Positions 1-9,708 of a DNA stretch of 9,708 bases are shown here, in pieces. Position numbers and translations under genes: made by a program. The DNA is from a virus, in UHGV virus genome UHGV-0797466, one strand, 5' to 3'. Within the stretch, counting starts at the first letter, position 1. Each line of letters begins with the position of its first letter. Below the pieces are notes generated by a model. That model was given only the letters and a program-made list of their open reading frames with translations. It made no database searches and was not told the origin of the DNA.

Positions 1-13
1 GCCAGGAGGACCC

Positions 14-38
14 GTAAAAAAGCCGGATTGCTCCGGCT
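14..38 (-). terminator. Rho-independent terminator downstream of the SSB gene
   Basis: Hairpin AGCCGGA (21-27) / TCCGGCT (32-38) with a 4-nt loop; the A-run at 16-21 is a U-run on the minus-strand transcript. It lies 16 nt past the SSB stop at 54-56. The same block (about 85% identical) recurs at 8751-8775. Confidence 0.6.
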
Positions 39-53
39 TCTGTCACTCGTCGC

Positions 54-476
54 TTAAAACGGTATGTTATCCCCGTACGGATCATCATTCCCCGCCTGTT
101 GTTTTGCCCTGTTCAGCGCGTCAGTAGCCTGGCCCTGTTGACCTTTTTTGCCGCCCAGTCGCGCCGTTCGCGCACTGATTACACTGTCTGCGATAACCTG
201 CCAGCCCTGCCGCGTTTCTCCGTTCTGCCCAGTCCACTGGCTGATCTGCATGTTACCCGCCACGCTCAGGAGTTCACCCTTGCGGTGCCTTTCCAGTGCT
301 TCGGCCTGTCTGCCAAATGCCAGGACGGATAACCACATCGTCGCCGTTCCGTCATCTGCCTGGCTGCACGGAAGGGGGACCGCCATACGCGCCAGCGTCA
401 TCGGTGTGCCCTTGCTGGTCTGTTTTACCTGCGGGTCGTCCACCAGCCGCCCGTAAGCGGCTATCTGTGCTGTCAT
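54..476 (-). CDS. ssb: Single-stranded DNA-binding protein (SSB, OB-fold) of phage/plasmid type
   Basis: 140-aa ORF. The core resembles E. coli SSB as remembered (TMWLSVLAFGRQAEALERHRKGELLSVAGNMQISQWTGQNGETRQ vs [42 protein letters not shown]). It has a Gly/Gln-rich linker and an acidic tail ending DNIPF (E. coli SSB ends DDDIPF). ATG at 474-476 overlaps the upstream stop (ATGA); SD-like GGAGAGGTGG lies upstream. Confidence 0.85.
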   Translation of the reverse strand: MTAQIAAYGRLVDDPQVKQTSKGTPMTLARMAVPLPCSQADDGTATMWLSVLAFGRQAEALERHRKGELLSVAGNMQISQWTGQNGETRQGWQVIADSVISARTARLGGKKGQQGQATDALNRAKQQAGNDDPYGDNIPF

Positions 477-751
477 GATTCCACCTCTCCGGTTTTAACG
501 TTGATGGTTGTTACCTGTTCCGCTTCGGCAATCTCCCGTTCTGTCAGCGTGGCAAAGTTTGCCGCCGTCGTGGTCATGAATGCGCTTATCAGTTCGGGAT
601 GTGCTTTCGCGTATCCTTCCCCCGCGTGGCGGTCTATCGTTCTGATTGCCACCTTTAAAGCGTGCTCTGTCATGTCTAACGCGCGATATTTCGGTTCTGT
701 TCTGTCTCTGCGTTTTTTGAGTGATTTATTAAATTTCCCTGAAGTGTGCAT
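473..751 (-). CDS. Hypothetical small basic protein (92 aa) between the origin and ssb
   Basis: ATG at 749-751 preceded by SD-like GAGGGGG (762-768, about 10-nt spacer). Stop overlaps the ssb start. Lysine/arginine-rich N-terminus. No family recognised. Confidence 0.5.
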   Translation of the reverse strand: MHTSGKFNKSLKKRRDRTEPKYRALDMTEHALKVAIRTIDRHAGEGYAKAHPELISAFMTTTAANFATLTEREIAEAEQVTTINVKTGEVES

Positions 752-801
752 ATTTATTTTTACCCCCTCGTTTAAAAAGTTTTGAGTTGTGCCTCCCCTT
801 G

Positions 802-1026
802 TCTACCTTATCTACCTTAGTGGCCCTCATGCCAGTAATGGCGCGGCTTTCAGCGGGGTAGAGTGCTTTTATCCACTATCTACCCCGTGTCTACCTCCCT
901 GTCTGACTCAGGTAAAATCAGGTAGAGAGGGTAGATAGTGGGTAGACAGTAAAAAAAAGCTATCTACCTAACTTAATGCACTGAATTAAATGTATTTTTC
1001 TTTACTCAGGTAGACAGGGTAGACAG
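802..1026. repeat. Iteron field, putative replication origin
   Basis: At least 11 copies of the hexamer core TCTACC / GGTAGA in about 225 bp: TCTACC at 802, 811, 879, 890, 963; GGTAGA at 857, 921, 930, 941, 1009, 1018. Extended form GGTAGACAG appears three times. An A8 tract (951-958) and an AT-rich stretch (971-1003) are embedded. It sits directly downstream of the primase/helicase gene, as P4 ori/crr iterons sit near alpha. Confidence 0.7.
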
Positions 1027-1039
1027 CAATTACAAAAAA

Positions 1040-2794
1040 TTATAAAAACGCGTCGCACTCGTCTGTTGTTATTGCGTTAGTCTGCGTTACTCCCTTAACT
1101 TTCCGCGTAATATATTCATGTCCGTAAACTTTCGCGGCTGGCTTCATAGCCTTGCCAAAGTCATTTACGTTTAGCGGTTTGCTCCTGCCTGCGTACGCCA
1201 TAAACGCCAGATAGACGCGGTAAAGGCTGTTTCTGGTCGTGTACTTCACTGAATCGCCACCGCCGCCCATCATCAGGCCGCGTGCTTCCTCCAGAAAATT
1301 CAGGAACTGGCAAAACTCAATAACCGGATCCGTCTGTTGCTTTATTGCCAGTGCTTCATCACCGTCACGCTGTTCCAGTAGTAAAGCCCGTGCTTTCTCA
1401 GAGTCGGTAAAGTTCGCCAGCAATCGGCGGATAATGACAGGGATTTCAGCCGCAATCTTTTCCGGTAGCTCCCTGTCTTTTTCGGCCTCACTGACGATAT
1501 TGTCGAAACGGAAAATCACGCGACGACGTGCCACACCTCCGGCCCGTTCGGTGAATATCATCGGGTTGTTGTTGGTCGCCAGCACCACCGCCCTGATTAC
1601 CGCCGTAAAACGCTTTTCATATTTCGGGTTAATTTCCACGGGGTCACCGCCCGTGATTTTCTTGATGCCCGTTCCTTCGCCTGTATATTTCGGCTGGTCA
1701 GCCAGGACGATAAGACGACTCCCGACAACCTGCGCACGTCCACCAGCATCATCAAGCGATGTCATTTCAGCGCTTACCGTGTTCTGTTTCCCTGCCAGAA
1801 GGCTGGCTATGTGCGTGAATGTACTTTTACCGCTCCCGCCGTCTCCGGTGGCCTCAATAAACATCTGCCAGTCGTACCGGTTCGCCATAATCATGTACAG
1901 CGCGGCACATATACGCATCATCTTGCGCGGGTCTTTTCCGGCTGCGTGCTTAAGCCATTTATGAAAGTTTGGCGCGTTATCGCGGATGTTCTCCCCTGGT
2001 GCTGGTGGCGTGTACTCAATGCCGTTGTTCGTGGTGATCCAGTTCTCCGGCGTGTGCGGGGAAAATTCCCCCGTTTTCAGGTCAAGCGCACCATTGGCGA
2101 ACGGCAGCAAATCGCCGGACGGCTCGCCCATTGGTTCGGCAATAACTTTTAACGCTTCCACGGCGTTATTGATTACGCGCTTGCTGAAAGTGGCCCTGTG
2201 CTCTGAATAGATCGCCACCATTTCGCGGCTAAGTTCCATTGTGCTGACCGGACACCATACCCCGCCGCGCCATACGTGAACGATTTCACTTTCAGGATGT
2301 ACGCAAACGCCATCAAAGCGATCGGCAAGCAGCTGCGCGCGCTCACTGTCCGCCATCTGCGAAAGTTGCGCCTTTTGCTTTACCGGAAGCTCAATGACCA
2401 GACCATCAGAAAGATTCTGGCGCTCACGGGCCAGATATTCGCGCCAGTTCTCCACCTTCTGACCGTGCATACCATCAGGGTAAAAATTTGCATCCTGAAT
2501 ATCTGCCGCCGCCAGCTTCTGACCAATCTTTTTGGTCTCCACTAAATCCAGTTCTCCGGCCTGGTACAGCCTTACGCGCTTTTTCCCATCCGGAACAATT
2601 TTCAGCGCATCAAGTTCGGCAAGCTGATTTGGCCCAAGCCACACAGGCGGCACATTATCGCCGGATGCGGGGCCGTCCTGCTCCTGCCACTGTTTTGCAT
2701 GTGACCACGCATCACTACCCGCGAAAATAATTACCTCTGTGTCTTTGTGTTTTATTCCGCGTGGTTGTTTTTTTACGTTCGGTGCCAGTTTCAT
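1040..2794 (-). CDS. P4 alpha-like primase/helicase (phage/plasmid primase with P-loop NTPase domain)
   Basis: 584-aa ORF with Walker A motif GDGGSGKST. General resemblance to P4-family primase C-terminal / D5-type NTPase proteins. ATG at 2792-2794 overlaps the upstream stop (ATGA); SD-like CAGGGGT lies 5 nt upstream. An iteron field lies immediately downstream. Confidence 0.85.
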   Translation of the reverse strand: MKLAPNVKKQPRGIKHKDTEVIIFAGSDAWSHAKQWQEQDGPASGDNVPPVWLGPNQLAELDALKIVPDGKKRVRLYQAGELDLVETKKIGQKLAAADIQDANFYPDGMHGQKVENWREYLARERQNLSDGLVIELPVKQKAQLSQMADSERAQLLADRFDGVCVHPESEIVHVWRGGVWCPVSTMELSREMVAIYSEHRATFSKRVINNAVEALKVIAEPMGEPSGDLLPFANGALDLKTGEFSPHTPENWITTNNGIEYTPPAPGENIRDNAPNFHKWLKHAAGKDPRKMMRICAALYMIMANRYDWQMFIEATGDGGSGKSTFTHIASLLAGKQNTVSAEMTSLDDAGGRAQVVGSRLIVLADQPKYTGEGTGIKKITGGDPVEINPKYEKRFTAVIRAVVLATNNNPMIFTERAGGVARRRVIFRFDNIVSEAEKDRELPEKIAAEIPVIIRRLLANFTDSEKARALLLEQRDGDEALAIKQQTDPVIEFCQFLNFLEEARGLMMGGGGDSVKYTTRNSLYRVYLAFMAYAGRSKPLNVNDFGKAMKPAAKVYGHEYITRKVKGVTQTNAITTDECDAFL

Positions 2795-3090
2795 TTCTTA
2801 CCCCTGAATACGTTAAGCATCTTTTTTATTTCCTGAATATTGGCGCGTGCTTTCTCCCTGCTGGTGGGCACGTTACGCGGTACGGCCTGCACCAGAGAAA
2901 AATCACGATCGAACTGATAAACAGGCATCACGCAATCATATTCGTAGCCTTCACGACGGTAGGTTACGCGCCGTTCCTCCACGCCCTTAATCATTACCGT
3001 GCCGCCGTACTGGTCGCGGTAAATATCACCGCGCATGAATTTAGTGCGAGTTTTGCCACTGGCAGTTAAGCCAGAATATTTAAGTTTCAT
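2791..3090 (-). CDS. Hypothetical protein (99 aa), translationally coupled to the primase gene
   Basis: ATG at 3088-3090 with GGAGAA 8 nt upstream. Stop overlaps the primase start. No family recognised. Confidence 0.6.
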   Translation of the reverse strand: MKLKYSGLTASGKTRTKFMRGDIYRDQYGGTVMIKGVEERRVTYRREGYEYDCVMPVYQFDRDFSLVQAVPRNVPTSREKARANIQEIKKMLNVFRGKK

Positions 3091-3095
3091 TATTT

Positions 3096-3326
3096 TTATT
3101 CTCCGGTGTGGAGCGCTTTATTATTCTCGTGAATTGCCATAGCCTTATTGAGTTCATCAATAACAGGTGTCAATAATGTCTGAACAGCGGCAAACATTAA
3201 TGATGAATGATCTTCGCCACCTTCCGGCACTTCAATTAATTTAATTAACAACGCATTCATTTCGCGTGCTTTAATTAATGCGTTTTCAGAGTGGATTAAT
3301 ACTTCAAAAGGGATTTTATGCATCAC
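3096..3326 (-). CDS. Hypothetical small protein (76 aa) in the AT-rich island
   Basis: Starts ATGATG at 3321-3326 with AGGGAGA 7 nt upstream. Overlaps the upstream gene by 11 nt. Sequence is visibly AT-rich. Confidence 0.5.
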   Translation of the reverse strand: MMHKIPFEVLIHSENALIKAREMNALLIKLIEVPEGGEDHSSLMFAAVQTLLTPVIDELNKAMAIHENNKALHTGE

Positions 3327-3546
3327 AAATTTTCTCCCTTATTCTTTTAATGTCCTCATTAAGGATGTCTGTAACTTTTATCAGCGAGTTTTTGGCAATT
3401 ATTTTTATTGTTTTAAGTTTTCTTTTGTCGTGCTCCGACTGTGATTTTCTCTCCATAATCTCCACCATGTGGGTAACATCAACGAGCGCACGTATCAGTA
3501 TTTGCATTGCTTCTTCTGCTGCGTCCGGTGTGGTTTTATTGCACAT
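3316..3546 (-). CDS. Hypothetical small protein (76 aa) in the AT-rich island
   Basis: ATG at 3544-3546 with strong SD GGAGGGG 3-5 nt upstream. Overlaps the 3' end of the 89-aa ORF in another frame. Charged, probably helical. Confidence 0.5.
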   Translation of the reverse strand: MCNKTTPDAAEEAMQILIRALVDVTHMVEIMERKSQSEHDKRKLKTIKIIAKNSLIKVTDILNEDIKRIREKICDA

Positions 3547-3764
3547 GTACCCCTCCGCATTTTTTCGTTAGAAATAAGCGTTCTTCTTTCCTGTTCATCG
3601 CTCAGGAATACGCAGACCTCACCGCTAAGGCGTTTAAGTAAGCCGATGATTGCCCCTGATTCGCTGTCGGTCATCATGCCAGGGTAATCCTCTGCCAGTG
3701 CGCAAATAACTTCGATTTGGTGGGCGCGTTCTGCTGCCTGTTGTAGTGTGATTTCCTGACTCAT
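3495..3764 (-). CDS. Hypothetical protein (89 aa)
   Basis: ATG at 3762-3764 overlaps the stop of the upstream Icd-like gene (ATGA). The C-terminal about 17 aa overlap the next ORF, so the true 3' end is uncertain. Confidence 0.45.
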   Translation of the reverse strand: MSQEITLQQAAERAHQIEVICALAEDYPGMMTDSESGAIIGLLKRLSGEVCVFLSDEQERRTLISNEKMRRGTCAIKPHRTQQKKQCKY

Positions 3765-4222
3765 AAGCCTACCCCCTGACGAATACGGGCGACAAAAATC
3801 AGATGTGCGTGCGGCAGCTGTGCACGTGCTTCGCGCTCAGTGGCAGCGGTAACGGTGAATATTGCAATGCTGTCTGTCAGGCACTGCATAAAGCGCCAGA
3901 CAAAATAAGGGCGTGCGGATACAGCCATGTGAAAGGCTCCCAGATGAATTTTAAGGAGTCTCGCTACTACGCTGTCAAACATGGTGGCGAGACGTAACAG
4001 GGTTGACAGACTGGTCATCTGGAAACCAGCGAGCACAAAGGCTCCCCCGTTACGCCCCGCCATAATGCGGGTATGGGTAGGTTTACGGACACAAAAAAAC
4101 CGCTTATCGGATGTGGGCGGCTGTCCGCCAGATGTATTCAGGCTGTCAAACCCGGTCGCCATGTGGGCGACGGGGGAAGCATACAGCCCCGTGATAATTT
4201 TTTGCAAGCGGTTTTTACGCAT
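3761..4222 (-). CDS. Ash/Icd-like protein (153 aa) with C-terminal Icd-like motif
   Basis: C-terminus TEREARAQLPHAHLIFVARIRQG matches the remembered Icd-like motif (SE.EAR ... LSFAAR). ATG at 4220-4222 overlaps the upstream stop (cATGcgTAA); SD-like AGGGG lies 7 nt upstream. An internal start at 3928 (GGGAG SD) is an alternative. Confidence 0.6.
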   Translation of the reverse strand: MRKNRLQKIITGLYASPVAHMATGFDSLNTSGGQPPTSDKRFFCVRKPTHTRIMAGRNGGAFVLAGFQMTSLSTLLRLATMFDSVVARLLKIHLGAFHMAVSARPYFVWRFMQCLTDSIAIFTVTAATEREARAQLPHAHLIFVARIRQGVGL

Positions 4223-4418
4223 GATATGACCCCTGGCGAATACGGGCAGCGAATACCATCACGCAGCCAGCCGGAGATTGCTGACGCGCTTCCTGTTCGC
4301 TGGTGGCCTCGATGGTAATCACGCGCGGTTGTGCCGTGCTCAGGGCGATAAAACGCCAGATGTATTTATTCAGGTTGTACGAGTCCCGCCCTTGCGGGTG
4401 TCTGGTATAATTTCTCAT
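4215..4418 (-). CDS. Host cell division inhibitor Icd-like small protein (67 aa)
   Basis: This is the C-terminal 67 codons of the 382-aa ORF in the track; the rest is judged spurious. ATG at 4416-4418 with GAGG 5 nt upstream. C-terminus SEQEARQQSPAGCVMVFAARIRQG is paralogous to the next gene and fits the Icd-like motif. Confidence 0.6.
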   Translation of the reverse strand: MRNYTRHPQGRDSYNLNKYIWRFIALSTAQPRVITIEATSEQEARQQSPAGCVMVFAARIRQGSYHA

Positions 4419-4439
4419 AGCTACCTCGATACTTTCGCT

Positions 4440-4614
4440 ATCGTTGGTGGTTAGAAGCCCTGCATGTGTTCCAGCACTGCGGGGCTTTGCTGTACATACA
4501 CCACAATCATTAGTGTGTGTACAGATTAAATTTAAGTGCGCTACAGTGTCAAGTGTTTTATTTACACACCTTTTGGTGTAATGTATGCACACCTCAAAAT
4601 AACCGGACATTCTG
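4440..4614. promoter_or_regulatory. Divergent promoter/operator region between the leftward operon and the RHH gene
   Basis: Lies between divergent starts at 4418 (-) and 4615 (+). Imperfect 9-bp-stem hairpin AAGCCCTGC (4453-4461) / GCGGGGCTT (4478-4486). Palindromic motif TTACAC...GTGTAA / ACACC-TTTT-GGTGT at 4561-4580 and related TACATACACC at 4492-4501. Decamer AACCGGACAT at 4600-4609. Confidence 0.5.
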
Positions 4615-4920
4615 ATGGCAACAGGAAATATCAACAGCAGATCGCAAATGAAAAATATCCGCTTCCCCCATGATGTAATCGAGGAAATGGAAAATTCGAA
4701 AACGGAAGGGGAAACAATAGCCGCTTTCGTGATTACAGCCGTTCGCGGTGAGATCGCCCGCCGCCAGGCAGAAGGAAGCGGAGAAAATCCCCTGGTTTCT
4801 TCGCTCGATGCACTGGCGCAGGTGGAAAAAATCGGAGTCAAAGCAGCCGAGGAGATCGGGCAACTCATCACCGTCGCGCGTGAAGAACTCCAGCGTCGCA
4901 AGGCCAAAGAGCAGGAGTGA
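4615..4920 (+). CDS. Arc/Mnt-like ribbon-helix-helix DNA-binding protein, candidate satellite repressor
   Basis: Segment KNIRFPHDVIEEMEN aligns with the P22 Arc N-terminus as remembered (FNLRWPREVLDLVRK), followed by a helical, charged C-terminal extension. It is the only convincing plus-strand gene, divergent from the main operon, and followed by a strong terminator. Start could be M1 (4615) or M12 (4648); neither has a strong SD. Confidence 0.65.
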   Translation: MATGNINSRSQMKNIRFPHDVIEEMENSKTEGETIAAFVITAVRGEIARRQAEGSGENPLVSSLDALAQVEKIGVKAAEEIGQLITVAREELQRRKAKEQE

Positions 4921-4962
4921 CCATCACCAGCGCCGTGGTGTAAGGTATTACGGCGCATTGCT

Positions 4963-5151
4963 ATGCAGGACAACACAATGACCGATAAAGAATTGACCAA
5001 AACATTATCACCGGCACGGAAAAGACGGCGCAGAAAGATAGAGCATGAATCAGAAAGATTCGCGCCATGTGCTTTTGCCCTTGAGCAATTCCTTAAAGAG
5101 TACAGGGAAAAGCGCTCATTGCAGGTATGGCAACGAACTGAACCAGACTGA
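4963..5151 (+). CDS. Possible small basic protein (62 aa) downstream of the RHH gene
   Basis: ORF in the same frame as the RHH gene, separated from it by a single TGA (4918-4920). No convincing SD. It fills most of the gap before the terminator. Weak call. Confidence 0.3.
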   Translation: MQDNTMTDKELTKTLSPARKRRRRKIEHESERFAPCAFALEQFLKEYREKRSLQVWQRTEPD

Positions 5152-5246
5152 TTGCATTGCCCACCAGCCTGATAACGGCTATCATCCCCGTGCTTATGTT
5201 TGGGATCACACACACAAACGGCGCAGCGGGTTATCTGTTCAGAAAG

Positions 5247-5274
5247 GCGGCTCCATTTCGGGGCCGCTTTTTTT
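5247..5274 (+). terminator. Rho-independent terminator ending the rightward (RHH) transcription unit
   Basis: 8-bp stem GCGGCTCC (5247-5254) / GGGGCCGC (5260-5267) with one G-U pair, loop ATTTC, followed by T7 (5268-5274). Confidence 0.75.
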
Positions 5275-5396
5275 ATACCTGAAAAACCCCAATTTTGTTG
5301 TTTTTCAGTTTCACCAGGGCGAACGAATCCCCGCCCACGTTCTGGCGTATATTCAATCTTCATGGTTATAGCTCTGTGTTCAGATGATTGATGTGT

Positions 5397-5413
5397 GGCG
5401 GCTGCGTGCCGCC
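5397..5413 (-). other. GC-rich hairpin just 3' of alpA
   Basis: Perfect 6-bp stem GGCGGC / GCCGCC with loop TGCGT, 8 nt past the alpA stop. No U-run follows on the minus strand, so it is not a canonical terminator. Confidence 0.3.
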
Positions 5414-5420
5414 AGCGTGA

Positions 5421-5609
5421 TTAATGAACTGCCTTGCAGCTATCCTTCCAGGCCAGAACCTCGGATAAAGACCAGCCAACGGAACGACCGCCAAGTTTAC
5501 GACGTGATGGGAATTGTCCGGCCTTTTCCAGGCGGTAGCGACACGTACGGCTAAGGCCGGTTAGTTTTTCGCATTCTTTTTCACGTATAAACCGATCAGT
5601 GCTTAACAC
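5421..5609 (-). CDS. alpA: AlpA-family HTH regulator (excisionase-like)
   Basis: C-terminal part LTGLSRTCRYRLEKAGQFPSRRKLGGRSVGWSLSEVLAWK resembles the AlpA family (ITGLS...YRL...G.FP....LG.R.VGW...E...W). The track ORF (5421-5690) starts at TTG. I prefer the GTG at 5607-5609, which has a strong SD (GGGGGG, 5-nt spacer) and gives 62 aa, the usual AlpA size. Confidence 0.75.
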   Translation of the reverse strand: MLSTDRFIREKECEKLTGLSRTCRYRLEKAGQFPSRRKLGGRSVGWSLSEVLAWKDSCKAVH

Positions 5610-5760
5610 TATTGCCCCCCTTTCGTTTCTTAAAGAGTCATCAGGTGTCTTATTGTGTCGTATTGTTCCCGCTAGAGTGATGAATGGCAAATACTGAGGA
5701 TATATGATTTACAGAAAATGAAACAGTAAGAATAAAATCTTTTAAATTCATGTTAATACA

Positions 5761-5791
5761 AAGGCATAAAATATTGTTCCATGCCTTTTTT
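5761..5791. terminator. Hairpin with flanking T-run in the int-alpA intergenic region
   Basis: Stem AAGGCAT (5761-5767) / ATGCCTT (5781-5787), 13-nt loop, T6 at 5786-5791 on the plus strand. The minus-strand side is moderately U-rich. Could terminate int read-through; modest confidence. Confidence 0.35.
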
Positions 5792-5880
5792 CTCGCTCTT
5801 TAAAGAGTGATTCGCTAGTGTACAAAAAACCAGTAACACATTAAAAATCAGCTACTTATAAATCCGTACGCTTTTTCGCC

Positions 5881-5930
5881 TCTTGTTCGTAGTTGTTCCA
5901 CATTGTTGCTCATTGTTGCACGTTGTATCT
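5881..5930. repeat. Five 10-bp-phased TTGTT repeats just 3' of int
   Basis: Decamers tcTTGTTcgt, agTTGTTcca, caTTGTTgct, caTTGTTgca, cgTTGTatct begin at 5881, 5891, 5901, 5911, 5921, in exact 10-bp register. Confidence 0.5.
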
Positions 5931-5974
5931 GTTCGCATATCCAGTATGCGCATACTGAAAAAACACGAAAAAAA

Positions 5975-7204
5975 TTATTTTCTTCTGGCTACGGGTAGCG
6001 TGGTTACGTTTTCATGTGTTCCCGCCAGTATCCCTAACCGCTCCGTCCACATATCCAGCGCATTGCGTTTCGCATCCAGATAACGGGAATGATTATAAAC
6101 TCGCTGCATTCCTGGCATCTGGTGGCCTGTAAGCTGCTCCACGACATGCGGATCAACGCCTAAATCGTTCAGCATGGTTGTAAAGGTGCGCCGGATGTCA
6201 TGCAGTGACCAGTGAGGGTGATTAAGCCTCCTGTGCGCTAATCTTCCATACTGCGATACGCTGGCCTCCTGTTTCACTTCCCCCAGCAATAAGCCCGTGT
6301 GCCTGTTCTGCTCCACCAGCTGCGTGACGAACGGCAGGATCGCTTCCGGTATGGGCCGGAATATTGCGACCTTCGTTTTGCTGTGCTCCTTCGGAACGGT
6401 CCATAGCATTTCCGTAAAATCCCACTCCCCGATCTCCGATAACCTCAGTTCTACCGTTCTGGCTCCGAAGACAATCAGGAGGCGGATTAACGCGACGTAG
6501 TAAGGGGAGAATATTTTTTTGTCCAGTGCCTGCAATAATTCGCCAAGTTCTTTGTTACTTAAGACACGTTCGCTTATATCCGGTTTTTTCCCAACGTCCG
6601 CCACGTTCAGATCGTCCAGAACGTTGCTGATTGCATAGCGCCGCCTACGGCAGAACTTAAGCGCCTGTTTGCACGCCTGTAGCACGAATCCGGCAGTAAC
6701 AGGCGTTCGCTTTGCCACCTGGTCAAAACAGGCCAGCCAGTGCCGTAGCTCGCATTTATCCAGCGGCATAGCACCAATCTGCTGTATTACGTGATTATTA
6801 AGTCGCCTTTTCAGGGCGATATAATCCACGCGGTTTTCCTTTACGTAATACTCAAGCCAGTAGGTGAGCGCATCGCCAACCGTTACGGGCTTTAACGCTT
6901 CCTGTACGGTGTAATTCATCTCATGACGTGGATTTTTCCCCTCAGCCAGCCATGTGCGACACTGTGCGGCTTTTTCCCTGGCTGCTTTCAGGCTCAGATC
7001 AGGATAACTTCCCAGCTTAATGCGTTCGGGTCGTGTCTCCCTTCCCGTTCCGGCCCTGTATGTGAAATACCAGGTCAATTTCCCTGATGTTAAATATTTC
7101 ACGCTCAGGTTTCCGCCATCACTATAAAACGTGTTTTTCTCCGCTGGCTTACCATGAAGTTTCCTTAGCAAGGTATCGCTCAGTTTGTTCATTGCTCTGC
7201 TCAC
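5975..7204 (-). CDS. int: Tyrosine recombinase, P4-like integrase
   Basis: 409-aa ORF. N-terminal arm-binding-like region (SDGGNLSVKYLTSGKLTWYFTYR ... KLGSYPDLSLKAAREKAAQ) resembles P4-family integrases. C-terminal catalytic region contains HDIRRT and a Tyr near the end (RVYNHSRYL). GTG at 7202-7204 with SD GAGGGGG 6 nt upstream; an in-frame ATG at 7192 is an alternative. Confidence 0.9.
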   Translation of the reverse strand: MSRAMNKLSDTLLRKLHGKPAEKNTFYSDGGNLSVKYLTSGKLTWYFTYRAGTGRETRPERIKLGSYPDLSLKAAREKAAQCRTWLAEGKNPRHEMNYTVQEALKPVTVGDALTYWLEYYVKENRVDYIALKRRLNNHVIQQIGAMPLDKCELRHWLACFDQVAKRTPVTAGFVLQACKQALKFCRRRRYAISNVLDDLNVADVGKKPDISERVLSNKELGELLQALDKKIFSPYYVALIRLLIVFGARTVELRLSEIGEWDFTEMLWTVPKEHSKTKVAIFRPIPEAILPFVTQLVEQNRHTGLLLGEVKQEASVSQYGRLAHRRLNHPHWSLHDIRRTFTTMLNDLGVDPHVVEQLTGHQMPGMQRVYNHSRYLDAKRNALDMWTERLGILAGTHENVTTLPVARRK

Positions 7205-7228
7205 GTTTTACCCCCTCTTTACGAAAAA

Positions 7229-7620
7229 GTGACTACACCAGTGACTACACCGTTCGGTGCACTGTATAGAAACAACGTGGAACAAATAGACACAAGAAAT
7301 ATACAGGCGGGTCATCTTTCCAGGGGGAAGCGCGCTAATTCATGAGGGGCGTTAATGTTGATATGGGGATCCCCATAACGGGGCTACCGGATTTTTTTCC
7401 GGTTTAACTGTTAATCAGGCTGGTGGGCTTTACCTGTTTTGTAGGAGTGGTCATTATGACCATTCAGACAATGACCTTAATCAGAACTTTTCGCTAAAAA
7501 ATGACGTTGGTCACGTCGTCCGGAAAGCACAAAATCCCGTCAATTTTTAATTAACGGTTAAACCGTCTTTTGTCACGGCGTGTCACTGGTTGTCACTCTC
7601 CGTCACGGTATGTCGCTACT
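7229..7620. other. attP-like region: arm-type repeats on both sides of a palindrome-rich central segment
   Basis: Tandem 12-bp repeat GTGACTACACC(A/G) at 7229-7240 and 7241-7252, 25 bp upstream of int. Five 10-bp-phased repeats at 7571-7620 (TGTCACggcg, TGTCACtggt, TGTCACtctc, cGTCACggta, TGTCgCtact). GTCAC is the reverse complement of GTGAC, and GTCACT resembles the lambda Int arm-site core (AGTCACTAT) as remembered. Between them: perfect palindromes TATGGGGATCCCCATA (7362-7377) and GGTCATTATGACC (7449-7461), and a hairpin at 7386-7403. Confidence 0.5.
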
Positions 7621-8116: not shown

Positions 8117-8183
8117 GAACCAGTTAACCGAAAGTGTGCACAAATCACATGCATTGCTGCGAGTGATTAACAAGTTATCGGCT

Positions 8184-8618
8184 TTACTGTTCTGTATCGG
8201 CTGATTGCTCCATGCTGGCACGGCGAACGCTTATGGCATGACGCCACCCAGCCAGAAAGCCAGCCATTTTATTTCGTGCCTTGCTCACATCTTCCGGTGA
8301 ATAGCCGTAAATCTGCAAACCTTCATCAAATCGATGTTCTGTTTCTTCACTGGAGTACTCGTCACGCTCAGATGAAAGCAGCCTGGCAAACATAATTTTT
8401 TCCAGCGCACTGGTTTCTACGTGATATCTGATGGTCTCAAGACGGCTTTTACCTGAAGACCAAAGCAATGTATGCCCGATGTGATAACCGCCAGACTTTC
8501 CGCGATCCGCATTAAGATACGGCATCCCCTGTTTGGTCCATGCGCGAATAGTGGTTCTGTTAACCTTGAAATGTTCAGCTATTTCCTGCTGACTTACAAA
8601 ACAAGCTTTATCAATCAT
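8184..8618 (-). CDS. Nu1-like terminase small subunit homolog (winged-HTH); candidate Rpp-type packaging redirector
   Basis: N-terminus VSQQEIAEHFKVNRTTIRAWTKQGMPY aligns with lambda gpNu1 (VNKKQLADIFGASIRTIQNWQEQGMPV) as remembered. 144 aa. ATG at 8616-8618 with AAGGT SD. No terminase large subunit follows, which fits a satellite TerS-like protein rather than a phage terminase operon. Confidence 0.8.
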   Translation of the reverse strand: MIDKACFVSQQEIAEHFKVNRTTIRAWTKQGMPYLNADRGKSGGYHIGHTLLWSSGKSRLETIRYHVETSALEKIMFARLLSSERDEYSSEETEHRFDEGLQIYGYSPEDVSKARNKMAGFLAGWRHAISVRRASMEQSADTEQ

Positions 8619-8685
8619 AATGTTACCTTAACTGCATGGTTAAATATTAATCAAGTGGTGGTGGTGTCACCTTCACGGAAAAACG

Positions 8686-8750
8686 TCATAAATAGCGAAA
8701 ACCCGCGAGGTCGCCGCCCCGTAACGGGTCCATAATTCCAGGAAGGACCC
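8686..8750 (-). other. Second lambda-type cosQ-cosN module, inverted relative to 7939-8003, upstream of the Nu1-like gene
   Basis: The reverse complement of 8686-8750 reads GGGTCCTTCCTGGAATTATGGACCCGTTACGGGGCGGCGACCTCGCGGGTTTTCGCTATTTATGA. cosN is at 8708-8719 on the minus strand. The 22 nt after cosN match lambda exactly as remembered. No AACCGGACAT repeats lie between this cosN and the gene start. Confidence 0.7.
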
Positions 8751-8775
8751 GTAAAAAAGCCGGATTTCTCCGGCC
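8751..8775 (-). terminator. Rho-independent terminator downstream of the 137-aa gene, abutting the cosQ-like flank
   Basis: Hairpin GCCGGA (8759-8764) / TCCGGC (8769-8774) with loop TTTC; the A-run at 8753-8758 is a U-run on the minus-strand RNA. It lies 7 nt past the stop at 8781-8783 and is paralogous to the terminator at 14-38. Confidence 0.6.
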
Positions 8776-9553: not shown

Positions 9554-9708
9554 TTAACCAATTTTGACGGTAACAAATTTGCGAATATCTGCCGGAACCG
9601 GCTGCGGTGCGCTGTGCGTCTGCACGTACTCAATCGCCGGATCGCCGTCCTCAATCCAGTTTTTCGGGTAAAAAATGGTCCGAGCAGGATAAAGACATGC
9701 ACGACCCA
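9554..9708 (-). CDS. 3' end of an upstream ORF running off the window (possibly scaffold/protease-like by synteny with lambda Nu3/C before D)
   Basis: Open minus-strand frame ending at TAA (9554-9556). Hand-translated C-terminus: ...WIEDGDPAIEYVQTHSAPQPVPADIRKFVTVKIG. Function is inferred from position only. Confidence 0.35.
   Translation of the reverse strand, partial: GRACLYPARTIFYPKNWIEDGDPAIEYVQTHSAPQPVPADIRKFVTVKIG

What the first reader, a model, noticed from the sequence alone, without database searches (positions are those of the whole stretch)
3761..4418. Tandem paralogous Icd-like genes with ATG/stop overlap
Both proteins end with the same motif (SEQEARQQ...VMVFAARIRQG and TEREARAQL...LIFVARIRQG), and the DNA encoding it is itself a recognisable repeat (4227-4246 vs 3769-3790). 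The second gene has an about 100-aa N-terminal extension. Duplicated host-division inhibitors at the head of the operon may target different host or helper factors.
Basis: partly seen in the sequence, partly recalled or inferred. Interest (0 to 1): 0.35.

Follow-up and report, generated by a model that had tools for sequence, protein, structure and literature searches.

The report
Antisense-RNA immunity cassette between two Icd genes
The two Icd-like genes are real, but the "100-aa extension" of the second one is really a P1/P4-type antisense-RNA (C4) immunity switch, so this is a new example of a known phage control system that genome databases annotate as protein.

Summary
The sequence facts hold. 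On the minus strand, ORF 4418-4215 (67 aa) and ORF 4222-3761 (153 aa) both carry an Icd-like domain (NCBIfam 69.8 and 49.9 bits). They share an 18-29 nt DNA repeat, and their stop and start overlap (ATGCGTAA). RefSeq already annotates both as Icd-like proteins.

The "extension" is not a protein domain. It holds a candidate internal promoter, the a1/b1 target sites, a C4 antisense RNA gene (Rfam 72.6 bits, 78% identical to phage P1 c4) and the a2/b2 targets. The b2 site sits on the Shine-Dalgarno sequence of an ATG at 3928. That ATG starts the conserved 55-aa Icd2, which is homologous to P1 Icd and P4 Kil.

In 29 related loci, mostly from isolate genomes, the a and b sites covary perfectly with the C4 loops. 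Those 29 show seven b specificities; metagenome contigs add two, and P1, P7 and D6 one each.

The extension evolves without protein constraint (pN/pS 1.08, against 0.12 for Icd2). Even so, its frame stays open in every satellite lineage I examined, but not in P1, P7 or D6. This mirrors the nested eta/kil genes of P4.

The duplication reflects cassette shuffling at the conserved ARIRQG-coding repeat. I rate this a new member of a known kind.

The parts
4525..4552 (-). Candidate upstream (regulated) promoter for Icd1: -35 TTGACA (4552-4547), 16 nt spacer, -10 TTTAAT (4530-4525)
   Evidence: Read from the sequence. The consensus scanner reported nothing because it requires A at -10 position 2. 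This is an inference only.
4490..4524 (.). Operator-like inverted repeat just downstream of the candidate -10 (arms 4490-4501 and 4513-4524)
   Evidence: the repeat finder: 12-nt arms, 92% complementary, 11 nt apart. The function is inferred.
4455..4487 (-). Leader hairpin upstream of the Icd1 Shine-Dalgarno (GAGG, 5 nt before ATG 4418)
   Evidence: Inverted repeat of 10 nt, 90% complementary. The stem differs but is kept in the Nissle-type leader.
4215..4418 (-). Icd1: 67-aa Icd-like protein and first ORF of the operon. No C4 target lies at its ribosome-binding site.
   Evidence: NF033153 69.8 bits. RefSeq WP_032346745.1. pN/pS 0.11 among 7 unique relatives. PHROG 6196 144 bits.
4230..4258 (.). 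Direct repeat copy 1 (codes ...AARIRQG of Icd1 and supplies the GGGG Shine-Dalgarno for the next ATG)
   Evidence: (family D1). This is the junction of the cassette indel relative to Nissle 1917.
3761..4222 (-). Long ORF2 (153 aa). Its ATG overlaps the Icd1 stop, and it runs through the whole RNA cassette into Icd2. It is the analogue of P4 eta.
   Evidence: Open in 28 of 29 related loci. There are 0 in-frame stops against 4 and 6 in the other two frames. pN/pS 1.08 over codons 1-98.
4178..4207 (-). Candidate internal c4 promoter: -35 TTGCAA (4207-4202), 18 nt spacer, -10 TATGCT (4183-4178). The predicted start is near 4171.
   Evidence: The -10 aligns with that of the annotated P1 promoter P1c4 (former P51b); the -35 is read by eye. 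Conserved in all 26 unique relatives. Below the scanner threshold at 8/12, so this is inferred.
4135..4184 (-). a1/b1 target region: a1 TTGACAG at 4149-4143, b1 CATCTGG at 4134-4128
   Evidence: Rfam RF03163, 46.8 bits against gathering 46.7. Perfect complementarity to the C4 loops and covariation in relatives.
4093..4129 (-). Hairpin GGCGGACAGCCGCC (4129-4116), then a weak stem and a U7 run (4099-4093). This is the terminator-like 3' end of an IsrK/SeqA-like short RNA (4171-4093).
   Evidence: Rfam isrK, 35.2 bits, below gathering 50. One stem pair changes G:C to A:T in type II relatives.
3980..4067 (-). C4/CI-type antisense RNA gene: b' loop CCAGATG at 4022-4016, a' CTGTCAA at 4009-4003
   Evidence: Rfam RF01695, 72.6 bits against gathering 45. 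MFE -47 kcal/mol, z -6.5. 78% nucleotide identity to P1 c4.
3937..3978 (-). a2 (TTGACAG, 3978-3972) and b2 (CATCTGG, 3946-3940). b2 overlaps the Shine-Dalgarno GGAG (3940-3937) of Icd2.
   Evidence: Positional homology with the annotated P1 a2/b2 sites. Perfect b2:b' pairing in all 12 b haplotypes; 0 of 5000 shuffles reach it.
3761..3928 (-). Icd2 short form: the conserved 55-aa Icd-like protein (ATG 3928-3926). Its stop TGA overlaps the ATG of the next gene (ATGA at 3764-3761).
   Evidence: The start lies within 3 codons of the P1 icd start in the alignment. NF033153 53.8 bits. 22/44 identities to P1 Icd. pN/pS 0.12 outside an 8-codon variable patch, with third-position-biased variation. The alternative ATG at 3982 is lost in a-type-2 relatives.
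3773..3801 (.). Direct repeat copy 2 (codes ...VARIRQG of Icd2)
   Evidence: (family D1)
3534..3764 (-). Downstream gene translationally coupled to Icd2 (unknown function, PHROG 1478)
   Evidence: The same protein, WP_000076671.1, follows the single Icd in Nissle 1917. PHROG hit 98.5 bits.

Best explanation
The locus is the immunity and early-control region of a PICI/P4-like phage satellite. It consists of two small Icd-like leader genes with a P1 c4 / P4 cI-type antisense-RNA cassette inserted between them.

Shown:
- Icd1 (67 aa) and Icd2 (55 aa, ATG 3928) are the conserved proteins.
- The stretch 4184-3937 encodes the a1/b1 targets, the C4 RNA and the a2/b2 targets.
- The two single-stranded C4 elements (a' CTGTCAA, b' CCAGATG) are perfectly complementary to a1/b1 and to a2/b2. 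The b2 site overlaps the Icd2 Shine-Dalgarno.
- All three copies of each site covary across relatives.

Inferred from P1, P4 and Gifsy-1:
- In the quiescent element, a constitutive promoter inside ORF2 makes a transcript that is processed to C4.
- C4 pairs with a2/b2 and blocks Icd2 translation. Through loss of translational coupling and transcriptional polarity or termination, this keeps the downstream replication genes silent.
- The b loop sets the immunity specificity.

Inferred with about 0.6 probability:
- The 153-aa ORF2 is kept open so that ribosomes can transit, not for its amino-acid sequence.
- Transcripts from the upstream regulated promoter translate Icd1 and re-initiate at the overlapping ATG 4222. 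They then read through the a1/b1-C4-a2/b2 region into Icd2 and the next gene.
- Such transcripts would be insensitive to C4, as P4 eta does for kil.

The tandem Icd arrangement arose by cassette recombination at the conserved ARIRQG-coding repeat.
For: RNA cassette:
- Rfam C4 72.6 bits and c4-a1b1 46.8 bits lie inside ORF2.
- The region shares 78% nucleotide identity and colinearity with the annotated P1 a1-b1-c4-a2-b2-icd locus, and the icd start is homologous to ATG 3928.
- The C4 fold has MFE -47 kcal/mol, z -6.5.

Covariation:
- There are 2 a types and 12 b haplotypes. Each has at least 7 nt of perfect b1:b' and b2:b' pairing, and 0 of 5000 shuffles reach this.
- Two further consistent b types appear in metagenome contigs.

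Protein constraint:
- pN/pS is 0.12 for Icd2 and 0.11 for Icd1, against 1.08 for the extension.
- Variable sites by codon position are 21/28/21 in the extension and 10/7/21 in Icd2 outside the variable patch.

Open frame:
- The Icd frame has 0 stops across the C4 region in 19 satellite modules from about 4 lineages. In P4, eta (197 aa) and kil (65 aa) share one frame that runs through the CI RNA gene.
- Phages P1, P7 and D6 have 2-4 in-frame stops at similar divergence.
- The extension is exactly 294 nt in 29 of 30 loci despite compensating -1/+1 indels.
- ATG 4222 and its Shine-Dalgarno are conserved in all 26 unique variants.

P4 precedent:
- The old P4 'cI 137 aa' ORF contains both a C4 hit and an Icd domain.
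- PMC10111431 summarises the eta/kil mechanism. PMC4825925 describes a translated orf45 lying next to a C4-like RNA and coupled to anrP.

Cassette indel:
- Nissle 1917 has a single Icd1-body/Icd2-tail chimera followed by the same downstream gene.
Against: - No expression data exist for this element.
- Both promoters are read by eye and fall below the scanner threshold.
- The c4-a1b1 hit is only 0.1 bit above gathering, and the isrK hit is below gathering.
- The evidence that the long ORF is selected rests on few independent lineages. There are only two compensating indel events, and the 33-codon alternative frame would lack a stop about 20% of the time by chance.
- L153 has a broken frame (T7 to T6), and in L151 the upstream ORF does not stop at the ATG.
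- Nine metagenome contigs show mismatched a/b combinations. These are probably assembly chimeras, but they could be real.
- What Icd1 and Icd2 do to the cell is not tested here.
Confidence: 0.8

Rival explanations
1. C4 cassette as above, but the long ORF2 is never meaningfully translated. It would be an accident of ancestry and gene calling. Only the 55-aa Icd2 is made, and the bypass of immunity, if any, works another way.
For: - pN/pS is 1.08 with no codon bias in the extension.
- PGAP-style longest-ORF calling explains the annotation.
- All window-type modules are at least 86% identical, so openness is largely inherited.
- Only two compensating indel events are seen.
- L153 is broken.
- P1 works without such an ORF.
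Against: - There are zero in-frame stops in 19 modules of about 4 diverged satellite lineages, including P4 eta. P1, P7 and D6 have 2-4 stops at comparable divergence.
- The 294-nt length is exactly conserved.
- The ATG, its Shine-Dalgarno and the stop overlap are conserved even where flanking sequence diverges, as in L125.
- Translation of P4 eta is reported to prevent termination (PMC10111431).
Confidence: 0.3
2. One reading: two paralogous division-inhibitor proteins, the second with a genuine ~100-aa N-terminal protein domain, diverged to hit different host or helper targets.
For: - Both carry Icd domains.
- RefSeq annotates a 153-aa protein.
- Icd2 has a hypervariable 8-residue patch.
Against: - The extension is filled by Rfam-detected RNA elements with three-way covariation.
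- It shows no protein-level constraint.
- In type III relatives, 33 codons are read in another frame.
- The extension has no Pfam, PHROG or PDB match; PHROG hits cover only residues 101-151.
- Icd1 and Icd2 belong to different Icd lineages joined by recombination.
Confidence: 0.05
3. The cassette is a decaying remnant (pseudogenised immunity region) with no current function.
For: - PGAP flags some relatives as 'frameshifted'.
- Many related elements, such as the Nissle type, lack the cassette altogether.
Against: - a/b complementarity is perfect in every one of the 29 related loci, which come mostly from isolate genomes.
- Many co-evolved specificities exist.
- The C4 structure is intact.
- Icd2 is under purifying selection.
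- The 'frameshifted' ORFs are in fact open.
Confidence: 0.03

Closest known systems
Phage P1/P7 immI operon (c4 antisense RNA - icd - ant1/2)
   Same: - The order a1-b1-c4-a2-b2-icd is the same, with 78% nucleotide identity over b1 to a2.
- The a site (TTGACAG) is identical.
- b2 overlaps the icd Shine-Dalgarno.
- The Icd stop overlaps the next ATG (ATGA).
- Icd2 is 50% identical to P1 Icd.
   Different: - The b specificity differs: CATCTGG against GTTAGTG in P1 and GATTGTG in P7.
- The downstream genes are satellite replication genes, not ant.
- P1, P7 and D6 have no open frame across c4, with 2-4 in-frame stops.
- They also have no upstream Icd paralogue.
Satellite phage P4 immunity region (seqA - CI RNA - seqC, with kil nested in eta)
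   Same: - A long ORF (eta, 197 aa) runs through the RNA gene in frame with a short Icd-like ORF (kil, 65 aa). The kil Shine-Dalgarno is covered by seqC/b2.
- The eta start overlaps the stop of the upstream gene.
- There is an internal constitutive promoter and an upstream regulated one (PMC10111431).
   Different: - The RNA sequence type is P1-like rather than P4-like; blastn finds no match to P4.
- ORF2 gives no Pfam Phage_ASH hit, whereas eta does.
- The coupling partner is an Icd paralogue (Icd1) rather than the alpA/vis homologue.
- The element carries capsid genes.
Gifsy-1 isrK - orf45 (STnc1160) - anrP locus of Salmonella
   Same: - An IsrK/SeqA-like short RNA ending at a U-run terminator lies upstream of a C4-like processed RNA.
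- A small ORF is conserved in nucleotide sequence but variable in amino-acid sequence. It is translated and coupled (AUGA) to the next gene (PMC4825925).
   Different: - The isrK hit in the window is weak: 35.2 bits against gathering 50.
- The downstream protein is Icd-like, not AnrP.
- IsrK is described as an activator in trans, which has not been examined here.
RefSeq 'host cell division inhibitor Icd-like protein' (NF033153) entries of E. coli satellites
   Same: The two CDS are annotated identically in E. coli 300033, FORC_069, IAI39 and others.
   Different: - The database entries treat the 153-aa ORF as one protein and annotate no ncRNA.
- Relatives with an open but frame-shifted extension are flagged as 'frameshifted' pseudogenes.

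Membership tests
Icd-like protein domain (NCBIfam NF033153) | HMM score above the curated cut-off (25 bits) | tested here: met
   Icd1 69.8 bits, ORF2 49.9 bits (residues 107-149), Icd2 short form 53.8 bits
Icd-like protein domain (NCBIfam NF033153) | Pairwise homology to the founding member, P1 Icd | tested here: met
   Icd2 22/44 identities, E 2e-12; Icd1 16/47 identities, E 1e-6
Icd-like protein domain (NCBIfam NF033153) | Inhibits host cell division or is toxic when expressed | not testable with these tools
   Known only from record notes for P1/P7 Icd and from the summary of P4 Kil in PMC10111431
C4 antisense RNA (Rfam RF01695) | Covariance-model score above gathering (45 bits) | tested here: met
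   72.6 bits, full-length match to model positions 1-87 at 4067-3980
C4 antisense RNA (Rfam RF01695) | Long closing stem enclosing two hairpins, with single-stranded a' and b' elements | tested here: met
   The MFE structure matches the model: -47 kcal/mol, z -6.5
C4 antisense RNA (Rfam RF01695) | Two target pairs (a1/b1 upstream, a2/b2 downstream) complementary to a'/b', with b2 at the ribosome-binding site of the next ORF | tested here: met
   7-8 nt of perfect pairing at all four sites. Three-way covariation in 12 b haplotypes and 2 a types; 0 of 5000 shuffles reach it
C4 antisense RNA (Rfam RF01695) | Processed from a precursor and represses in trans | not testable with these tools
   Needs a Northern blot or genetics
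c4-a1b1 motif (Rfam RF03163) | Score above gathering (46.7 bits) | tested here: met
   46.8 bits at 4184-4135, only marginally above threshold
IsrK/SeqA-like sRNA (Rfam RF01394) | Score above gathering (50 bits) | tested here: not met
   35.2 bits at 4171-4093. The upstream modules of relatives reach 61-65 bits
P4 eta/kil nested-gene arrangement | A short Icd/Kil ORF and a long in-frame ORF that starts upstream of the RNA gene and reads through it | tested here: met
   ORF2 153 aa with Icd2 55 aa. There are 0 in-frame stops against 4 and 6 in the other frames. P4 has the same pattern
P4 eta/kil nested-gene arrangement | Long-ORF start overlapping the stop of the upstream gene (translational coupling) | tested here: met
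   ATGCGTAA overlap with Icd1; the overlap is seen in nearly all of the 26 unique relatives, with L151 an exception. The partner is Icd1, not an alpA homologue
P4 eta/kil nested-gene arrangement | Constitutive promoter internal to the long ORF, so that only upstream transcripts can encode it | tested here: inconclusive
   TTGCAA-18-TATGCT; its -10 aligns with that of the annotated P1 promoter P1c4. It matches only 8/12 of consensus and the scanner reports nothing
P4 eta/kil nested-gene arrangement | Translation of the long ORF prevents immunity-dependent termination | not testable with these tools
   Supported only indirectly, by conservation of the open frame in satellites but not in P1, P7 or D6
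Ash protein family (Pfam PF10554) | HMM score above gathering (26 bits) | tested here: not met
   No hit for ORF2 or Icd1. P4 eta scores 82.4 bits over residues 20-144, which is the translated seqA-CI region

The most novel reading that the evidence does not exclude
ORF2 would be a 'translation-only' reading frame. Selection keeps about 98 codons open across an RNA gene and its targets, through compensating frameshifts and with pN/pS near 1, purely so that ribosomes arriving from Icd1 can override C4 immunity. Satellites would then stack 0, 1 or 2 such RNA-plus-Icd cassettes of different specificity as a combinatorial immunity lock.

A further untested twist concerns the C4 b' loop of this element. 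It is also complementary to Icd1 codons 19-21, within a 13-nt perfect copy of the b1 region. C4 might therefore also act on the upstream paralogue.
Probability: 0.35. Interest if true: 0.55.

Novelty: new member of a known kind. Interest (0 to 1): 0.35.

Why it matters
- **Annotation.** In the E. coli records I inspected, these CDS are called 'Icd-like protein', some with long N-terminal extensions and some as 'frameshifted' pseudogenes. PHROGs call the family 'transcriptional repressor', and the Pfam Ash family matches P4 eta over its translated seqA-CI region. Much of that sequence is a C4/CI antisense RNA gene with its targets and a likely promoter. Experiments that delete or disrupt the 'extended Icd-like protein' (for example the ECOR61 cell-death effector in bioRxiv 10.1101/2023.04.06.535777) would also remove an immunity RNA if the architecture is the same.
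- **Biology.** A P1-type c4 switch has been built into PICI/P4-like satellites in the P4 eta/kil configuration. A large natural set of co-evolved a/b specificities gives a ready-made panel of orthogonal RNA-RNA regulators.
- **Limit.** The mechanism itself is not new.

Tried and rejected
- **tblastn against phages:** Icd2 (73-aa form) gave no match. The query is too short for the database size. P1 homology was shown instead by DNA search and pairwise BLASTP.
- **The search for related loci on genome contigs:** the 153-aa ORF gave no confirmed relative.
- **15-mer scan of genome contigs (CCAGTCTGTCAACCC):** most hits were chance matches. About 32 were real C4-like modules, mostly in Acinetobacter. 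None has a recognisable Icd ORF or an open frame, so they served only as a loose negative control.
- **Profile and structure searches:** Pfam gave nothing significant for either ORF. PDB sequence search and PADLOC gave nothing for the Icd ORFs.
- **Literature:** Forti et al. 1999 (PMC94026) is not held, so P4 eta/kil facts come from the summary in PMC10111431 and from the P4 sequence itself.
- **Alternative Icd2 start at ATG 3982 (73 aa, the same length as P1 Icd):** rejected. It has no Shine-Dalgarno, it lies in the 3' end of C4, and it is replaced by CCG in a-type-2 relatives.
- **Indel evidence:** I considered whether concerted length changes in b1, b' and b2 could trivially preserve the frame. 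The alignment shows the indels are not of that kind (-1 at b1; +1 either 8 nt later or in the b' loop). There are only two such events, so this line of evidence is weak on its own.
- **Extra scans:** an IMG/VR pattern scan returned the same 29 contigs.
- **Structure prediction:** not attempted, because it would not bear on the question.
Full report
**1. What is in the sequence**

All relevant features are on the minus strand. ORF 4418-4215 encodes a 67-aa protein, Icd1. The mechanical ORF list extends it to 4215-5363, which is an over-call. ORF 4222-3761 encodes 153 aa, ORF2.

The C-terminal 45 residues of the two align at 19/45 identities, E 8e-11. The DNA encoding the shared ...ARIRQG ending is a direct repeat: 3773-3801 versus 4230-4258, with an 18-nt core at 17/18 identity. 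The ORF2 ATG (4222-4220) overlaps the Icd1 stop (4217-4215).

It is also already in the databases. RefSeq annotates exactly these two CDS as 'host cell division inhibitor Icd-like protein' in E. coli 300033 (99.9% identical over window 1-7262) and in many other strains.

**2. Icd relationship**

- NCBIfam NF033153 (cut-off 25 bits) scores 69.8 bits on Icd1 and 49.9 bits on ORF2 residues 107-149.
- Phage P1 Icd aligns to the ORF2 C-terminus at 22/44 identities (E 2e-12) and to Icd1 at 16/47 (E 1e-6).
- Pfam gives nothing, including no Ash hit.
- There is no PDB or PADLOC match.

**3. The 'N-terminal extension' is an RNA control cassette**

Rfam places three elements inside ORF2 codons 13-81:

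| Element | Coordinates | Score | Gathering |
|---|---|---|---|
| C4 antisense RNA (RF01695) | 4067-3980 | 72.6 bits | 45 |
| c4-a1b1 targets (RF03163) | 4184-4135 | 46.8 bits | 46.7 |
| isrK, weak (RF01394) | 4171-4093 | 35.2 bits | 50 |

Window 4159-3970 is 78% identical to the c4 locus of phage P1. The P1 record carries curated features for this locus.

Aligning the two gives a one-to-one map:
- a1 TTGACAG (4149-4143)
- b1 CATCTGG (4134-4128)
- C4, with b' CCAGATG (4022-4016) and a' CTGTCAA (4009-4003)
- a2 TTGACAG (3978-3972)
- b2 CATCTGG (3946-3940)

The b2 site overlaps a GGAG Shine-Dalgarno (3940-3937), followed 8 nt later by ATG 3928. This ATG lies within three codons of the P1 icd start in the alignment.

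The -10 of P1's annotated c4 promoter P1c4 (former P51b) aligns with TATGCT (4183-4178). With TTGCAA (4207-4202) 18 nt upstream, this reads as a candidate promoter that lies downstream of the ORF2 ATG. This promoter is read by eye; the consensus scanner reports none. The C4 segment folds as the Rfam model predicts (-47 kcal/mol, z -6.5).

**4. Comparative evidence that the RNA pairing is functional**

I collected 31 IMG/VR loci and several E. coli loci. In the 26 unique sequences, the three copies of each site change together.
- The a1/a'/a2 set is either TTGACAG/CTGTCAA/TTGACAG or TTAGCAG/CTGCTAA/TTAGCAG.
- The b1/b'/b2 set occurs in seven types.

With P1, P7 and D6 added, there are 12 b haplotypes. 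Each has at least 7 nt of perfect pairing at both b1:b' and b2:b'. None of 5000 shuffles of b' among haplotypes reaches the observed value. Metagenome contigs add two further self-consistent types, CAGATAG and ACCAAAG. The a and b types assort independently. In every case b2 abuts GGAG-N8-ATG.

**5. Which parts are protein**

| Region | pN/pS | Variable sites by codon position (1/2/3) |
|---|---|---|
| 55-aa Icd2, outside the 8-codon variable patch | 0.12 | 10/7/21 |
| 55-aa Icd2, overall | 0.34 | 16/14/29 |
| Icd1 domain | 0.11 | not computed |
| The 98 extension codons | 1.08 | 21/28/21 |

In 'type III' relatives (L125, L154-158, L161), a -1 indel at b1 and a +1 indel in the b' loop put 33 codons across C4 into a different frame. 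PGAP calls two of these 'frameshifted', although the ORF is in fact open. The extension is therefore not a conserved polypeptide.

The alternative start at ATG 3982 is not conserved. The conserved protein products are Icd1 (67 aa) and Icd2 (55 aa).

**6. The long frame is nevertheless kept open**

- The extension is exactly 294 nt in 29 of 30 loci.
- ATG 4222, a GGGG/GGAGG Shine-Dalgarno and the overlap with the upstream stop are present in all 26 unique variants, even where the flanks diverge.
- The Icd frame has 0 stops across the C4 region in all 19 satellite modules examined. The other two frames have 1-10 stops.
- These modules fall into about four diverged lineages: the window type, an upstream 'Ash-type' module, the L126/L127 type, and P4.
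- In P4 the same analysis recovers eta (197 aa, ATG 8761, overlapping the stop of ORF88/vis) and kil (65 aa, ATG 8365) in one frame running through the CI RNA. The kil part is an Icd-like domain (73.9 bits).
- The phage-plasmids P1, P7 and D6 have similar nucleotide divergence from the window but carry 2-4 in-frame stops and no long ORF.

PMC10111431 summarises the P4 experiments. A promoter internal to eta makes the transcript that is processed to CI. Kil is a truncated Eta. Full-length eta is translated only from an upstream promoter, coupled to the alpA homologue, and its translation prevents termination. In Gifsy-1, orf45, which is conserved in nucleotide sequence but not in amino-acid sequence and lies next to a C4-like processed RNA, must be translated for the coupled downstream gene to be expressed (PMC4825925).

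I therefore favour, at about 0.6, the view that ORF2 is an eta-like read-through frame that is translated from upstream transcripts. The caveats are few independent lineages, only two compensating indel events, and one broken example (L153).

**7. Origin of the tandem arrangement**

Most E. coli relatives match only window 4430-4230. E. coli Nissle 1917 has a single Icd made of the Icd1 body and the Icd2 tail (...ARIRQGVGL). It is followed by the same downstream gene, WP_000076671.1.

The 457-bp a1b1-C4-a2b2-Icd2 cassette is therefore an insertion or deletion bounded by the ARIRQG-coding repeat. Other relatives carry two complete isrK/a1b1-C4-Icd modules in tandem. In those, the first long ORF starts with the same leader, Shine-Dalgarno and N-terminal peptide as Icd1.

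Icd2 is nearer to P1 Icd than to Icd1. The 'duplication' is best explained by modular recombination of regulatory cassettes. Functional divergence of the two proteins is possible but untested.

**8. Proposed mechanism**

Shown:
- the anatomy of the cassette
- complementarity and covariation of the a and b sites
- coverage of the Icd2 Shine-Dalgarno by b2
- stop/start overlaps at Icd1/ORF2 and at Icd2/next gene

Inferred:
- The internal promoter produces a short IsrK/SeqA-like RNA (about 4171-4093) and, by read-through and processing, C4.
- C4 pairs with a2/b2 and blocks Icd2 translation.
- Loss of coupling plus polarity or termination then silences the downstream small genes, the DUF4222 gene and the primase gene.
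- On induction, the upstream promoter fires. It is a candidate TTGACA-16-TTTAAT with an operator-like inverted repeat at 4490-4524.
- Icd1 is translated, ribosomes re-initiate at 4222, traverse the cassette and deliver translation to Icd2 and beyond, escaping C4.
- Icd-type peptides are reported to inhibit division (P1/P7 record notes) or to kill (P4 Kil).

**9. Verdict**

The locus is a new member of the c4/cI antisense-RNA immunity family, in the P4 eta/kil configuration with a P1-type RNA, in a PICI/P4-like satellite.

CI and seqA homologues in PICI 'Bro zone' genes have already been noted (PMC10111431). The main value lies in correcting annotation and in the rich natural covariation set.

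Noticed in passing
window 4215-5363 (-), overlapping 4615-4920 (+): The Icd1 frame stays open for 382 codons upstream. It runs through the promoter region and antisense to the YlcI/YnfO-family gene. PGAP annotates the distal part as an 'Icd-like, incomplete' pseudogene. In relatives the same frame is open for 428-472 codons, and another relative (L129) carries a BRO-N pseudogene at the corresponding position. In others it closes within 69-109 codons. It is probably a relic or a chance event.
   Followed up: partly
window 4126-4138 and 4354-4366: A 13-nt perfect direct repeat (CGCCAGATGTATT on the + strand), with an adjacent 15-nt repeat at 87%. The b1 target region is therefore nearly identical to Icd1 codons N-K-Y-I-W-R, and the C4 b' loop is also complementary to Icd1 mRNA. 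The Icd1 sequence is also present in elements that have no C4, so this may be coincidence or the source of this b specificity.
   Followed up: partly
L125, L132, L140, L143, L151, L157, L158: These relatives carry two complete isrK/a1b1-C4-Icd modules in tandem: a P4/Ash-type module followed by the window type. Each module has its own long open frame.
   Followed up: partly
L004 (P4) 8171-8761 (-); L157 upstream ORF: Pfam Phage_ASH (PF10554) matches residues 20-144 of P4 eta, which is the translated seqA-CI RNA region (82.4 bits). PHROGs label the Icd families 'transcriptional repressor', echoing the old protein annotation of P4 cI. Both look like legacies of translating an RNA gene.
   Followed up: partly
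L196, L197, L200, L201, L205, L206, L215, L217, L221 (metagenome contigs): Nine of 23 analysable metagenome contigs combine a1/b1, C4 and a2/b2 of different specificity types. Three of these have a 295-nt extension and a broken frame. All 29 related loci, which come mostly from isolate genomes, are self-consistent, so these contigs are probably assembly chimeras. Real recombinants are not excluded.
   Followed up: partly
window 3857-3880 (Icd2 codons 17-24): An eight-residue hypervariable patch (LTDSIAIF / HHSSIDIY / QEKQTSLF / HGKNIRLH) sits inside an otherwise strongly conserved Icd2. pN/pS is 0.69 in the patch against 0.12 elsewhere.
   Followed up: partly
window 7253-7262 and 9577-9677: The window is colinear with the E. 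coli 300033 chromosome only for 1-7262, which ends just past the integrase. Positions 9577-9677 match the far (capsid-gene) end of the same element. The window therefore appears to come from a circular or excised form, or from a permuted viral contig, with the attachment site near 7260.
   Followed up: partly
window 3559: A homopolymer run is 2 nt shorter than in E. coli 300033 (T6 against T8 on the + strand). This changes the C-terminus of the gene after Icd2: 89 aa here against 76 aa in WP_000076671.1. It could be a sequencing artefact or a real variant.
   Followed up: partly
L006, L017, L019, L024, L034 and about 27 more (Acinetobacter, Cardiobacterium, Stenoxybacter and others): About 32 loci outside the Enterobacteriaceae carry C4-like RNAs with the identical a' core and an upstream TTGACAG. 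None has a recognisable Icd ORF downstream or an open frame across the RNA.
   Followed up: partly
window 4116-4129: The hairpin GGCGGACAGCCGCC lies directly after b1. Its outer pair changes from G:C to A:T in type II relatives, which is a compensatory change. It competes with the weaker stem before the U7 run, which suggests alternative structures.
   Followed up: no
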